DNA of 63,889 bases, the filler included, from Octopus bimaculoides (Eukaryota), in the NCBI RefSeq assembly GCF_001194135.2. It is 6 parts of 6 records of this genome, joined end to end, with 100 filler letters (N's around TTAATTAATTAA, not from the genome) between each part and the next. Parts side by side here need not be neighbours in the genome. Positions count along the whole stretch, not along the records: positions 11,452 to 28,306 come from NC_068993.1; positions 28,407 to 36,488 come from NC_068990.1; positions 36,589 to 46,817 come from NC_068981.1; positions 46,918 to 60,065 come from NC_068982.1; positions 60,166 to 63,889 come from NC_069007.1; 1 more part is not named here. One strand, written 5' to 3'. Shown one piece after another: positions 23,532 through 62,644 of the stretch. Each line of letters begins with the position of its first letter. Position 1 is the first letter of the stretch. The notes beneath the pieces are model-generated. The model was not told where the DNA came from, made no database searches, and worked only from the letters and a program-made list of their open reading frames with translations. A program made the position numbers and the translations under genes.

Positions 23532-23590
23532 GAGAAGCGTCACTGATGAGGATTAATACTATCCGAAATCATCGATGATAGGACGCTCTC
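23532..23590 (+). ncRNA. Type I hammerhead ribozyme motif (HHR-1)
   Basis: CTGATGA 23543-49; helix II GGAT/ATCC; GAAA 23565-68; helix III palindrome ATCATCGATGAT; AUA cleavage triplet ending 23580; helix I AGCGTC/GACGCT plus 3 further bp, with a G.A mismatch at 1.1-2.1. Confidence 0.8.
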
Positions 23591-24317
23591 GCTTGTTGTG
23601 TGGAGGTTATCTCCCTTGTCTGTCAATAGATAGTGCTTTGTTCGTGACTAAGACTTGTTTTGACTCTTATCTCTAGCAATGCTGGTGGTAGCTTGCACCT
23701 TTGGTTATTTATGCCTTTTGGTTTCAGATTACTAGTCACCTAAATAATTAATAATTTTACGCATATACACACACATATATAGATACGTGTGTGTGAGTAT
23801 GAACGACGTTGGCATAAAGTTACAAATTGATAAGGTTGAAAATCAGATTTTCTGCTTACTTTGAAATTAAAGCAACAACAAAAAACATAATAACAGCTGT
23901 AGCAGCAGCAACAACAACAACAACAAGACGTACAACAACCACAAACATTTGTATTCGTGACAAACTATAAATTAGTATACATTGTAGCCAGAAAATAAAG
24001 CGAGAACGTTTTGTCGCTATGAAGCCGTACACCATGTATCGTCTACAATATGTCAACCAATTATGAAAACATCGTGTTTATCAAGTGACAGATATCAATT
24101 GTGTTGTTAGATAAAGTAGCAAGGGTTTGAAGATCAGTCTTTTATGGACTTTGAGTATGAGAGGGCAGATGACAGAAAAACAGACTTATATGTAAACACG
24201 CACAAACATACACACGTTCACACACACACACACACACACACACACACACACACACACACACACACACACACACACACACACACACACACACACATACACG
24301 CACACACATATGTACTA

Positions 24318-24531
24318 CGGCACTCCGTGGATTACGACGACGAGGGTTCGAGTTGATCCAATCAACGGAACAGCCTGCTTGTGCAATTAACGTGCAAGTG
24401 GCTGAGCACTCCACAAACACGTGTACCCTTAACGTAGTTCTCGGGGAGATTCAGCGTGACACAGATTGTGACAAGGCTGGCCCCTCTGAAATATAGGTTG
24501 CAACAGAAACAGGAAGAAAGACCGAAAGTTG
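24318..24531 (-). mobile_element. SINE family C, 3' part
   Basis: Matches 33793-34000; cut by a gap. Confidence 0.8.
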
Positions 24532-26055
24532 NNNNNNNNNNNNNNNNNNNNNNNNNNNNNNNNNNNNNNNNNNNNNNNNNNNNNNNNNNNNNNNNNNNNN
24601 NNNNNNNNNNNNNNNNNNNNNNNNNNNNNNNNNNNNNNNNNNNNNNNNNNNNNNNNNNNNNNNNNNNNNNNNNNNNNNNNNNNNNNNNNNNNNNNNNNNN
24701 NNNNNNNNNNNNNNNNNNNNNNNNNNNNNNNNNNNNNNNNNNNNNNNNNNNNNNNNNNNNNNNNNNNNNNNNNNNNNNNNNNNNNNNNNNNNNNNNNNNN
24801 NNNNNNNNNNNNNNNNNNNNNNNNNNNNNNNNNNNNNNNNNNNNNNNNNNNNNNNNNNNNNNNNNNNNNNNNNNNNNNNNNNNNNNNNNNNNNNNNNNNN
24901 NNNNNNNNNNNNNNNNNNNNNNNNNNNNNNNNNNNNNNNNNNNNNNNNNNNNNNNNNNNNNNNNNNNNNNNNNNNNNNNNNNNNNNNNNNNNNNNNNNNN
25001 NNNNNNNNNNNNNNNNNNNNNNNNNNNNNNNNNNNNNNNNNNNNNNNNNNNNNNNNNNNNNNNNNNNNNNNNNNNNNNNNNNNNNNNNNNNNNNNNNNNN
25101 NNNNNNNNNNNNNNNNNNNNNNNNNNNNNNNNNNNNNNNNNNNNNNNNNNNNNNNNNNNNNNNNNNNNNNNNNNNNNNNNNNNNNNNNNNNNNNNNNNNN
25201 NNNNNNNNNNNNNNNNNNNNNNNNNNNNNNNNNNNNNNNNNNNNNNNNNNNNNNNNNNNNNNNNNNNNNNNNNNNNNNNNNNNNNNNNNNNNNNNNNNNN
25301 NNNNNNNNNNNNNNNNNNNNNNNNNNNNNNNNNNNNNNNNNNNNNNNNNNNNNNNNNNNNNNNNNNNNNNNNNNNNNNNNNNNNNNNNNNNNNNNNNNNN
25401 NNNNNNNNNNNNNNNNNNNATATATATATATATATATATATATATATATACTAAATGATGCACTTTGATAAATAATAACACCACCTACAACCGATTCTAA
25501 CCAAACGTATTTTTGGATAGAATACAACGTATTCTATCCAAAATATCGACGACTCTGCCATTTCGATGTCGTCTTACGCAGTCTTAAAACGTAACCATTA
25601 ATAATATGGTTTCAAGTGCACTTAGCATAGGAAAAGCGACAGGATGCTCACGGTGCCTGGACTGCAGTTAATTATAGGTCTGGTGCATCTAGAGCGCTAT
25701 GGTTTGGATGGGGCGGAGACTGAACAGATACCAATAACGGACAAACTATTCCTTGACGATGTATTTATGTAGTCACTCGCTCTGCAAGAAATAACGGCCG
25801 GAATACTTCCTCTTTTTCTCTCGGATAACAACACATCGTCTTTAAAATGAAAATTCGTTATATCATATAGTTTTAAATATTTCTAAACAAGATAGGATGG
25901 TCATGGTGGGACTATCCTTAATCATACGTCTGCTCCATCAGAGCTAACACAGTGTTGTATAACAACAGCAGCAACAATAATGGCAGCCTAATTTCATTCA
26001 AATTGCAAGCCATTGCTTAGAAAGCGTTAGGAGTACATTGAAGAATATTAAAAAG

Positions 26056-26371
26056 CTGGCGCTCCGTCGGTTACGACGACAAAGGTTCCAGTTGATCCGG
26101 TCAACAGAATAGTCTGTCCGTGAAACTAACCTGTAAGTGGCTGAGTACTCCACACATGCGTACCCTTGGCGTAGTTCTCAGGGAGACTCAGCGTAACACA
26201 CAATGTGACAAGGTCGGCTCTTTAGAATACGGGTACAATTCATTTTTGCCTGCTGACTGGACTGGAGCAACGTGAAATAGTGTCTTGCTCATGAACACAA
26301 TGTGTCACCGGGAATCAAACTCATGACCTAACGTTCGTGAGCCGAATACCCTAACCACTAAGCCACGTGCC
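26056..26371 (-). mobile_element. SINE with family C tail but a different (CORE-like) head and centre
   Basis: Same tail as 33793-33965; the 5' half differs (ggcacgtggcttagtggttaggg...gagcaagacac). Confidence 0.75.
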
Positions 26372-26699
26372 TATTAAAGTATATAGACCTCTATGTGGTC
26401 ACTTGAGATGCTAGAAATGGCAGACTAATCTCATTCAAATTGCAAACCATTATTTAAAAAGCGCTAGGAGTACATTGAAGAATATTGAAAAAACTGGCAG
26501 AAGGAAAAAAAATGGGATGTTTTCTGCTAGAAAGTTACTAACCATATGTGTGCATGGATGAGAGTTGAGCTGGGACTAGACATCAAGTATCACGATTAGA
26601 ACAACCTAAACGAAGACGGATTATGTAAATTCACTCAGATTGCTAAATAACAAAAACGGCATCGACAATAGCGGCAGCCATAACATGTGTAACAACGAA

Positions 26700-27330
26700 A
26701 GGAAGAGTAGGAAGAAGAAGAAGAAGAAGAAGAAGAAGAAGAAGAAGAAGAAGAAGAAGAAGAAGAAGAAGATGATGATGAACCCTTTTCGTTTCTTTCT
26801 TTTCTATTTTTCGTGTCTCTTATTCGTTTGTTTCTCGTCTTCCTCCTTTTCTTATTCTCCTTCCTTTTTGCTTTTACTTCGTATTTTCCTCCTACTTCCG
26901 GTTTCTCCTTCATTCTTCCTTCCCTTTCCCTAATTCTTTTTCGTTTTCCTTCCACATCACCTTCTCCTTCTACTTCTTCTCCTCCTCCTCCTCCTCCCCT
27001 CCCCCCCTCCTCCTCCTCCTTCTTCTTCTTCTTCTTCTTCTTCTTCTTTTCTTCTTCTTCCTTTTCTTCTTCTTCTTCTTCTTCTTCTTCTTCTTCTTTT
27101 TCTTCTTCTTTTCTTCTTCTTGGTACTAAAACAACAACAACAACAACAACAACAACAACTACTACTACTACTACTACTACTACTACTACTACTACTACTA
27201 CTACTACTACTACTGCTGCTGCTACTGCTGGTGGTGGTGTTGTTAGTAGTAGTAACAGAAGAAGAAGAATATGAAGAAGAAGAAGAAGAAGTAGAAGAAG
27301 AGGAAGTAGAAGAAGAAGAAGAAGAAGATA
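26700..27330. repeat. Compound trinucleotide microsatellite (GAA, CCT, TTC, CAA, CTA, GAA)
   Basis: Direct reading. Confidence 0.9.
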
Positions 27331-61829: not shown

Positions 61830-61992
61830 ACACTATGTCAGGCTGGATATCCCCGAGAACTACGTTAAGGGTACATGTGTCTGTGGAGTGCTCAGCCACT
61901 GGCACGTTAATTTCACGAGCAGGCTGTTCCGTTGATCAGATCAACGGAACCTTCGACGTCGTAAGCGACGGAGTGCCAACAACAACAACAAT
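61830..61992 (+). mobile_element. SINE family C tail with (CAA)n (intronic)
   Basis: Matches family consensus. Confidence 0.8.
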
Positions 61993-62029
61993 ACTGTGTA
62001 GAGTGTGTCTTGTGTTTGTTGGTTGTTTT

Positions 62030-62150
62030 ATTTGGGTATATATTCAGATTTGTCAAGGACCAGATAGCCAGGGATGATGTGGTCAACAGTCTCATTGTGC
62101 TGGTTGCACATTCTGCATTTGGAGTTAGGGCCTGTTTGCATTATTTTGCT
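62030..62150 (-). mobile_element. R4/R2-like element CCHC knuckle fragment in intron
   Basis: KCRMCNQHNETVDHIIPGYLVLDKSEYI (C-x2-C-x7-H-x4-C with last C>Y), next to (TAA)n. Confidence 0.6.
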
Positions 62151-62210
62151 TTTATAATTACTGTTGTCATTATTGTTATTATTATTGATTTATTATTGTA
62201 AAATACTCAC

Positions 62211-62309
62211 GTAGATCTTCCACACAGCCTTAATACTCTCCTTGCAAGGCATTTCGGAAAATATCGGTCACCAGTTCCAGTCACTTCTTGGACGGCACAG
62301 ACATTCGGA
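62211..62309 (-). CDS. TGFBI/POSTN-like: Exon of periostin/TGFBI-like gene, N-terminal part of EMI domain
   Basis: Minus strand: acceptor tttatttcag|, donor |gtgagt, 99 bp, phase 2 to 2. Reads (G)PNVCAVQEVTGTGDRYFPKCLARRVLRLCGRS(T), matching the TGFBI-type EMI pattern GPNVCAVQ..GT...YF..C.......CGKST (recalled). Confidence 0.93.
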
Positions 62310-62598
62310 CTGAAATAAAAATAAGATAATAATATATGGTGCTCCAGCATGACTACAGTCAGATAAGTGAAACAAGTAAAAGAATAAAAGAGTAAAAGAA
62401 TACACACACAACACATATATCTATATACTTATATATACTTACTTTATCGACACATTATATATATATATATATATATATATATATATATATATATACCGGA
62501 GTAAGCACATGAAATGTGCAACAAGGTGGAAAAAAGAGTACTCAAATACCAGAGGTAGAGTAATATGCTTTATTTAAAAGCAGCAGAAATATAACAAA

Positions 62599-62644
62599 AA
62601 AACCGTTACTCTGAGTTTCACGTTCCCGTTCATCGGACAGTTTT
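62599..62644 (-). ncRNA. Compact type I hammerhead motif in intron of the TGFBI-like gene (HHR-7)
   Basis: Minus: AAAACTGT-CCGATGA (U4>C)-ACG ggaa CGT-GAAA-CTCAGAGT-A|ACGGTTTT. 8-bp helix I, GUA site, helix III ACU/AGU. Confidence 0.7.

What the first reader, a model, noticed from the sequence alone, without database searches (positions are those of the whole stretch)
23532..62644. Dispersed family of Penelope-associated hammerhead ribozymes with long helix II and family-specific palindromic helix III
Seen: six type I hammerhead motifs (23532+, 32675-, 34481+, 36629+, 42767+, 62599-) plus minimal ones (34904+, 37032-). Four carry a long, self-pairing helix II domain of 61, 89, 57 and 58 nt (positions 10.1 to 11.1), against 10-15 nt in the compact two, although their sequences are otherwise largely unrelated. 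Helix III is a different palindrome in each: ATCATCGATGAT, ACGTACGT, ACGATCGT, ACATATGT, ATGGCCAT (ACTCAGAGT is near-palindromic). Established: Penelope-like elements and metazoan retrozymes carry type I hammerheads whose short palindromic helix III lets them act as dimers. Inference: several cephalopod Penelope lineages share an extended-helix-II architecture of near-constant length, possibly a protein/RT-binding or tertiary module, and the distinct palindromes could act as lineage-specific dimerisation codes. I cannot confirm whether this variant is already described.
Basis: partly seen in the sequence, partly recalled or inferred. Interest (0 to 1): 0.85.

Follow-up and report, generated by a model that had tools for sequence, protein, structure and literature searches.

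The report
Penelope hammerheads with oversized helix II
This animal DNA holds scattered, partly worn copies of the self-cutting hammerhead RNA motif known from Penelope-type jumping genes, and four of them carry an unusually long folded side arm (57-89 bases instead of about 10-30) that is likely a family trait and was not found described for animal elements, although its function is untested.

Summary
All eight motifs are present and far above chance (6 found, 0.15 expected; 4 long ones, 0.07-0.1 expected). They are type I hammerheads of Penelope-like elements (PLEs). 42767+ lies about 200 nt behind a decayed Hydra-clade GIY-YIG endonuclease, and 62599- matches a model of Hydra-clade hammerheads (E 1.4e-7). 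Family-varying palindromic helix III is not new: Craig 2021 File S2 tabulates it, 46 motifs from other animals show 29 versions, and 88.5% of arbitrary palindrome pairs fail to cross-pair anyway, so a 'dimerisation code' has no support. The long helix II is the real departure: 57-89 nt against 10-30 nt in 46 of 46 comparison motifs, with pairing beyond what shuffles give. 32675- belongs to a very high-copy repeat in two species. Only 32675- and 36629+ have intact cores and closing pairs. No cleavage was shown; no covariation was obtainable for the long arm. The scan noted ordinary Hydra-type hammerheads before on other DNA. Verdict: new structural variant of a known kind.

The parts
23532..23588 (+). 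Compact type I hammerhead; C3 23543, helix II 15 nt, 12-nt palindrome, predicted cut after 23580; N1.1-N2.1 mismatch
32675..32771 (-). Long-helix-II hammerhead with intact core; C3 32763, helix II domain 32756-32696 (61 nt; 5+7+11 bp rod), palindrome ACGTACGT, predicted cut after 32684
   Evidence: (z -4.4, 0 of 500 shuffles)
32633..32869 (-). Short high-copy repeat unit carrying the 32675- hammerhead; starts at a (TA)n run (32870-32895), 3' end lost in an assembly gap (32498-32632)
   Evidence: summed DNA depth 441,351 and 296,648 against 46 in single-copy bins
34481..34604 (+). Long-helix-II hammerhead, C3U variant; domain 34496-34584 (89 nt; 11-bp basal stem, AT-rich inner hairpin), palindrome ACGATCGT, predicted cut after 34596
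   Evidence: (z -3.6, 1 of 500); moderately repeated (depth 2,175; flanks 3,039 and 6,625)
34905..34937 (+). Minimal hammerhead (U4C, helix II 12 nt, ACGT helix III) in a separate high-copy short repeat
   Evidence: depth 141,452
35401..35704 (+). Decayed C-terminal GIY-YIG endonuclease fragment of a Hydra-clade PLE
   Evidence: 35401-35595, E 8e-14; 45% over 58 aa
36629..36727 (+). Long-helix-II hammerhead with intact core; C3 36639, domain 36646-36702 (57 nt; 14-bp basal stem, 5-bp apical hairpin), palindrome ACATATGT, predicted cut after 36714
   Evidence: (z -2.4, 10 of 500)
37032..37071 (-). Decayed minimal hammerhead (A6U, G12A), helix II 13 nt; a second, gap-truncated copy at 11470-
42089..42590 (+). 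Decayed linker (CxCx5C) and GIY-YIG endonuclease of a Hydra-clade PLE, frameshifted near its end
   Evidence: 1221 hits at E<=0.001; E 2.5e-26; clade motifs from PMC8557442 section 11
42767..42851 (+). Long-helix-II hammerhead, G5A variant, in the 3' UTR of the Hydra-clade fragment; domain 42778-42835 (58 nt; 12-bp basal stem), palindrome ATGGCCAT, predicted cut after 42847
   Evidence: z -0.7; inner basal duplex 4 of 1000
62599..62644 (-). Compact Hydra-type hammerhead (U4C), helix II 10 nt, helix III ACTCAGAGT; (TA)n run about 100 nt downstream
   Evidence: (34.2 bits, E 1.4e-7)

Best explanation
These are type I hammerhead motifs left at the 3' ends of several unrelated, mostly truncated Penelope-like retroelement copies, one of them directly behind a Hydra-clade endonuclease gene, and four carry a paired 57-89 nt helix II that is likely an inherited family feature; they would cut the element's RNA as pairs joined through the palindromic helix III, with the long arm likely sitting outside the catalytic core. 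Shown here: the motifs, their excess over chance, the extra pairing, the Hydra-clade ORF at 42089-42590, and the repeat nature of 32675- and 34481+. From the literature: PLE hammerheads cut poorly alone, better as dimers, and one needs the element's protein. Inferred: cleavage by these copies, tandem-copy dimerisation in cis, and tolerance of the long arm because PLE hammerheads show no recognisable loop 1-loop 2 contact; the arm may also serve as a handle for the element's protein.
For: Excess over shuffles. None of 120 pattern-only matches in prokaryote genomes has both helix I and helix II paired, while 32675- and 36629+ do. With the four end bases on each side held fixed, the clamped fold still beats shuffles: 0, 0, 2 and 16 of 300. 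Hydra-clade endonuclease upstream of 42767+ (motifs). 56 of 80 Hydra-clade loci carry the same core and AC...GT palindrome architecture at this position, with two-sided changes in all three helices (10 of 12 pairs). 32675- unit is about four orders of magnitude above single-copy depth in two organisms; no listed joint skips its helix II; two inversion joints end inside its apical hairpin (32718 in 126 RNA reads, 32723 in one DNA contig of the second organism); one contig of the second organism spans the 34481+ motif with 16 gap letters. Homodimer folds are 5-11 kcal/mol below two monomers.
Against: No ORF remnant near 32675-, 34481+, 23532+ or 62599- (one search finds only two Hydra fragments, and searched only for that clade). 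The link of 36629+ to the 35401 fragment crosses a LINE remnant and an assembly gap. Six of eight motifs have core or closing-pair defects. No family alignment of a long arm could be built, so covariation is untested; depth is binned at about 100 nt and 312 joints and 340 differences were not shown. The whole 42767+ domain folds no better than dinucleotide shuffles (108 of 500), and the 32675- inner basal duplex alone is weak (92 of 1000). No read ends were listed at predicted cut sites.
Confidence: 0.72

Rival explanations
1. The long helix II is a selected functional module, a binding or start site for the element's reverse transcriptase or a new tertiary contact that replaces the loop 1-loop 2 interaction.
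For: Four sequence-unrelated domains share a long basal stem; 3 of 4 are 57-61 nt and the fourth holds an AT-rich inner hairpin of about 30 nt; two inversion joints end in the apical hairpin of 32675-; in the anole Poseidon element RT starts in a stem-loop near the hammerhead and cleavage needs the protein (PMC11167929).
Against: No shared sequence motif; length clustering only p 0.03-0.06; 46 of 46 comparison motifs manage with 10-30 nt; only two joints, and the RNA one could be a library fold-back.
Confidence: 0.25
2. The long arms are neutral by-products: fold-back duplications or AT-rich expansions fixed in founder copies, self-pairing because of how they arose.
For: PLEs often make inverted copies (PMC8557442); the 34481+ arm contains an AT palindrome masked as a repeat; helix II already varies 10-30 nt in the clade.
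Against: Four independent families keep the core-proximal register with long basal stems; stems include G-U pairs and bulges rather than perfect inverted repeats.
Confidence: 0.4
3. The 32675- unit is a non-autonomous retrozyme-like element (about 230 nt, amplified on its own, possibly through circular RNA) rather than the truncated end of a long PLE.
For: Depth falls about 65-fold beyond 32845; the unit is short, ORF-free and abundant; retrozymes derive from PLE terminal repeats (10.64898/2026.07.22.740005).
Against: A single copy here, no tandem seen; depth falling towards the 5' end also fits 5' truncation; no goes-back joint was listed for the unit; its 3' end is in a gap.
Confidence: 0.3
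4. The different palindromes are selected codes that keep families from cross-dimerising.
For: Self-duplexes -7.0 to -15.5 kcal/mol, cross-duplexes -3.2 or weaker; 29 versions among 46 motifs.
Against: 88.5% of all pairs of 64 possible A...T 8-nt palindromes are equally incompatible; the same ACTCAGAGT occurs at 62599-, in 4 of 46 comparison motifs and in Penelope-3_HM; dimers of tandem copies form in cis and need no code. Covariation shows selection for self-pairing only.
Confidence: 0.1
5. The long motifs are chance matches in AT-rich DNA.
For: The descriptor was tuned after inspection; Rfam and the compact-motif model do not detect them.
Against: 4 found against 0.07-0.10; 0 of 120 pattern-only controls; placement behind a Hydra endonuclease; Rfam also misses compact ones (1 weak hit in 6 loci).
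Confidence: 0.02

Closest known systems
Hydra-clade PLE hammerheads (Craig et al. 2021, PMC8557442, File S2, including Hydra-1_oBim and Penelope-3_HM)
   Same: Type I core, 3' UTR position behind a CxCx5C linker and GIY-YIG domain, 8-10 nt (near-)palindromic helix III that differs by family, (TA)n neighbourhood; ACTCAGAGT is identical to the Penelope-3_HM row.
   Different: Helix II domain about 12-26 nt in the listed Hydra rows and 10-30 nt in my 46 motifs, against 57-89 nt in four motifs here.
Minimal hammerheads of metazoan PLEs (Cervera and de la Pena 2014, PMC4209133)
   Same: 34904+ and 37032- have this form; dispersed solo copies, many sequence families per genome, opposite-strand neighbours, dimer model.
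   Different: Their 'larger than usual' helix II is 7-8 bp; no row I could read in Fig. S3 has a long arm; helix III is mostly absent.
PLE-X1_sMoe and PLE-X1_sTam hammerheads of spike mosses (PMC8557442, File S2)
   Same: PLE hammerheads with about 50 nt between the core halves, marked as deviating from the canonical structure.
   Different: Plant, endonuclease-free, rDNA-targeted elements; no perfect 8-nt palindromic helix III.
Naiad 'HHR_half_core' cases (PMC8557442), including Octopus vulgaris and Euprymna
   Same: Core halves 35-50 nt apart in cephalopod PLEs.
   Different: Not accepted as ribozymes by the authors; by eye the Naiad_Obim, Ovul, Omin and Esco 3' ends lack this helix I plus palindrome architecture, and four 11-nt window motifs are absent from the supplement text.
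Metazoan non-LTR retrozymes (PMC7229834; 10.64898/2026.07.22.740005)
   Same: Short non-coding repeats with type I hammerheads whose helix III is 2 bp plus a tetraloop; thousands of copies in molluscs.
   Different: Defined by tandem arrays and circular RNAs, neither shown here; compact helix II.

Membership tests
Type I hammerhead ribozyme | CUGANGA ... GAAA ... UH core with three helices, helix I open | tested here: met
   Intact at 32675- and 36629+; core intact with closing mismatch at 23532+; single core changes at 34481+, 42767+, 62599-, 34904+; two at 37032-
Type I hammerhead ribozyme | Covariation of the helices across related copies | tested here: inconclusive
   Met for 22 compact comparison motifs (alignment chosen for fit); no alignment of long-arm copies could be obtained
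Type I hammerhead ribozyme | Self-cleavage after H17 | not testable with these tools
   Needs an assay; one RNA run lists no ends at the sites, which fragmented RNA-seq need not show
Type I hammerhead ribozyme | Match to an Rfam hammerhead model | tested here: inconclusive
   No hit in 32640-37150 or among the 150 rows shown for the window; Rfam also gave only one sub-threshold hit in 6 comparison loci
Hydra-clade PLE | C-terminal GIY-YIG domain after a CxCx5C linker | tested here: met
   42089-42590; endonuclease part only at 35401-35704
Hydra-clade PLE | RT domain with RWK and DKT motifs | tested here: inconclusive
   Absent from the truncated window copies; RWR and DKT are present in relative P0002, 46% identical over the endonuclease
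Hydra-clade PLE | Hammerhead in the 3' UTR | tested here: met
   42767+ about 200 nt behind the ORF end; comparison loci 67-527 nt. Not shown for 32675-, 34481+, 23532+
Hydra-clade PLE | Insertion at (TA)n | tested here: inconclusive
   (TA)n runs about 60-340 nt from six of eight motifs, none within 700 nt of 42767+; such runs are common in this DNA and no control was run
Non-LTR retrozyme | Tandem repeats, each with a hammerhead | tested here: not met
   All motifs in the window are solo copies without mutual similarity; other loci not seen
Non-LTR retrozyme | Abundant circular RNA | tested here: inconclusive
   RNA reads cover the 32675- unit equally on both strands; no goes-back joint listed for it; 312 joints hidden
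Naiad PLE | N-terminal GIY-YIG, no canonical hammerhead | tested here: not met
   The ORF remnants are C-terminal Hydra-type endonucleases followed by a hammerhead

The most novel reading that the evidence does not exclude
Several cephalopod PLE families, one present in thousands of copies in two species, carry a hammerhead variant with a 57-89 nt helix II that published descriptors and Rfam miss, and the arm is a selected RNA module that the element's own protein binds to switch on cleavage and at whose tip reverse transcription stops or turns back, producing the inverted copies typical of PLEs.
Probability: 0.2. Interest if true: 0.68.

Novelty: new variant of a known kind. Interest (0 to 1): 0.4.

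Why it matters
What hammerheads do in Penelope-like elements is still open: they cut weakly, and in the one reconstituted element cleavage needs the protein and is dispensable for insertion in vitro. A natural variant with a large deletable arm gives a direct test of whether helix II is a protein handle. In practice, searches limited to short helix II undercount ribozymes in mollusc genomes, and elements reported to lack hammerheads deserve a rescan with long-arm descriptors.

Tried and rejected
No whole genome is held, so no genome-wide descriptor search. Rfam on the window gave microsatellite noise in the 150 rows shown of 371 and nothing in 32640-37150. Word-based protein search with the decayed endonuclease: 0 of 65 candidates; with P0001: 2 of 35. 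Pfam on 8 window frames: no relevant family. Hydra endonuclease in viral contigs: 0 of 72 stretches. A 32675-type DNA pattern in viral contigs: 0. A looser pattern in prokaryote genomes: 120 matches, none with both helices, used as a chance control. Long-arm scan of all 80 comparison loci, both strands: 5 candidates, each with a core mismatch and weak folding, judged chance; three low-scoring long calls (L011, L019, L026) were dropped for the same reason. A model built from 22 compact motifs finds only 62599-, not the long ones, as expected from its length. No RNA holder was listed for 32640-35700; this is no evidence either way. Two further descriptor hits (31837-, 48303-) were rejected as chance level. 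The idea that these are the missing Naiad ribozymes was considered and rejected. Lunse et al. (PMC5785218) is not held.
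Full report
Observation. 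Helix II domains are 15, 61, 89, 57, 58 and 10 nt and the palindromes are as stated. A descriptor with at most one core mismatch, a palindrome of 8 nt or more and paired helices I and II finds 6 motifs against a mean of 0.15 (maximum 2) in 2 x 60 local dinucleotide shuffles, and 4 long ones against 0.07-0.10. The helix I rule was relaxed after I saw 34481+; the stricter rule gives 5 against 0.08-0.10 and 3 against 0.02-0.05. As a second control, 120 prokaryote matches to a core-plus-palindrome pattern gave 2 with helix I, 26 with helix II and 0 with both.

The long arm. Folded alone, the four domains score z -4.4, -3.6, -2.4 and -0.7 against 500 shuffles. Holding the four end bases fixed, so that descriptor-selected pairs do not count, the clamped fold is matched by 0, 0, 2 and 16 of 300 shuffles and the inner basal duplex by 92, 1, 19 and 4 of 1000. 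Each has a long basal stem, an internal or branched loop and an apical hairpin. They share no clear sequence similarity. Three of four lengths within 5 nt occurs in 2.6-5.6% of random draws, which is suggestive only.

Context. A profile of 82 related proteins finds two endonuclease remnants in the window, 35401-35595+ and 42089-42448+. The second has the CxCx5C linker that defines the Hydra clade (PMC8557442 section 11) and gave 1221 hits, among them an 806-aa ORF with RWR and DKT motifs; the one named relative is from Argonauta hians. The 42767+ hammerhead lies about 200 nt behind this ORF's end. 36629+ may belong to the 35401 remnant, but a LINE fragment and an assembly gap intervene. No ORF was found for 32675-, 34481+, 23532+ or 62599-; only the Hydra clade was searched by profile.

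Comparison set. A scan of metagenome contigs gave 435 relatives, of which the best 80 were kept. 56 of 80 have an intact-core hammerhead behind the endonuclease; 14 of the 24 without have under 300 nt of downstream sequence. The 46 distinct motifs have helix II domains of 10-30 nt (median 18) and 29 different helix III sequences (two probably called too short). In 22 motifs with 9-nt helix III, 10 of 12 pairs show two-sided changes, including both variable helix III pairs (the rows were chosen for fit). A model from them finds 62599- at E 1.4e-7 and none of the long motifs. Caveat: the scan pattern selects one subclade, not that of the 42767+ element, so the long arm may be commoner than this set shows.

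Copy number and RNA. One lay on 32640-35700 at 80% likeness (4 of 24 listed runs) shows summed DNA depth of 441,351 and 296,648 over the 32675- unit against 46 in single-copy bins, and 523,261 and 352,596 in a second organism. The tool warns that this is no copy number, but the contrast is about four orders of magnitude. None of the 15 listed joints skips its helix II, though joints of depth 37 are listed; 312 are hidden. Two strand-switch joints end inside its apical hairpin (32718 in 126 RNA reads from about 39 starts; 32723 in one DNA contig of the second organism), so other loci hold at least the 3' half of the arm. The 34481+ bin has depth 2,175, below its flanks (3,039 and 6,625), partly because an AT repeat there is masked; one contig of the second organism spans it with 28 other letters and 16 gap letters. 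RNA reads cover the 32675- unit equally on both strands (271 and 256), and no read ends are listed at predicted cut sites.

Mechanism. PLE hammerheads cut weakly and better as dimers (PMC4209133); the anole element's ribozyme cuts only with its protein, is dispensable for insertion in vitro, and RT starts in a nearby stem-loop (PMC11167929). An 8-nt palindrome gives only two pairs as a hairpin but eight in a dimer, and homodimer folds lie 5-11 kcal/mol below two monomers. I therefore read these as 3' processing ribozymes that would act as tandem dimers, now mostly decayed. The long arm is peripheral to the core. Whether it is a selected protein handle (0.25) or a neutral expansion (0.4) cannot be decided without family alignments.

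Palindrome code. Cross-duplexes are weak, but so are 88.5% of all pairs among 64 possible palindromes of this form, and ACTCAGAGT recurs across hosts. The data show selection for self-pairing, not for distinctness.

Literature seen. PMC8557442: passages, section 11, supplement parts 1, 2, 24, 25, 52, 53 of 59. File S2 lists Hydra-clade motifs with family-varying palindromes and helix II of about 12-26 nt, including one from Octopus bimaculoides, and two spike-moss PLE-X motifs with about 50 nt. PMC4209133: text parts 1-2 of 4 and supplement parts 1-2 of 3. 10.64898/2026.07.22.740005: parts 1-3 of 5; its supplements are closed. PMC11167929: parts 1-2 of 4. Passages only: PMC7229834, PMC6765202, PMC3088659, PMC13725137 (where 'long helix II' means 6-8 bp), PMC13282606 (no mention of ribozymes). 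Ten searches found no description of a 57-89 nt helix II in animal PLEs. Lunse et al. is not held, Arkhipova et al. 2017 did not come up, and Repbase and Dfam were not available; any of these could remove the novelty.

Verdict. Real motifs of a known kind. The palindrome part is already known; the long helix II is a credible new structural variant, with family-level support for one or two of four motifs and no functional evidence. Interest 0.4.

Noticed in passing
window 33781-34187 (+): A SINE-like insertion of about 395 nt with a 12-bp target duplication (33781-33792 and 34176-34187); the empty site is seen in contigs of two organisms, and summed depth reaches 7-11 million.
   Followed up: partly
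window 32900-34800 (+): An AT-rich, moderately repeated element of at least 1.5 kb (depth rising towards its 3' end) that carries the 34481+ hammerhead about 200 nt before its end; no Pfam or Hydra-clade ORF match, parent unknown.
   Followed up: partly
window 35690-35750 (+): A 37-nt hairpin followed by GAAA and a near-palindrome at the end of the Hydra endonuclease remnant; no upstream core, so not counted as a hammerhead.
   Followed up: no
window 11459-11594: A second, gap-truncated copy of the 37032- minimal hammerhead family; both copies have U at core position 6.
   Followed up: partly
window 35830-36410 (-), 38734-39195 (-), 28359-28880 (-): 3' fragments of what look like LINE ORFs (labels from recall, not tested).
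   Followed up: no
window 40100-41800 (-) and 49317-50400 (+): Remnants resembling a piggyBac-like transposase and a Ty3-like LTR retrotransposon (labels from recall, not tested).
   Followed up: no
L061:2180-2565 and L062: L061 holds three hammerhead calls with different palindromes within 400 nt behind one endonuclease; L062 holds a minimal and a Hydra-type motif close together.
   Followed up: no
Naiad_Obim and Naiad_Ovul 3' ends (PMC8557442 File S5): Both carry an identical GC-rich hairpin followed by GAAA and, about 25 nt later, a CTGATGA box; possibly a permuted hammerhead missed by type I descriptors. Seen by eye only.
   Followed up: no
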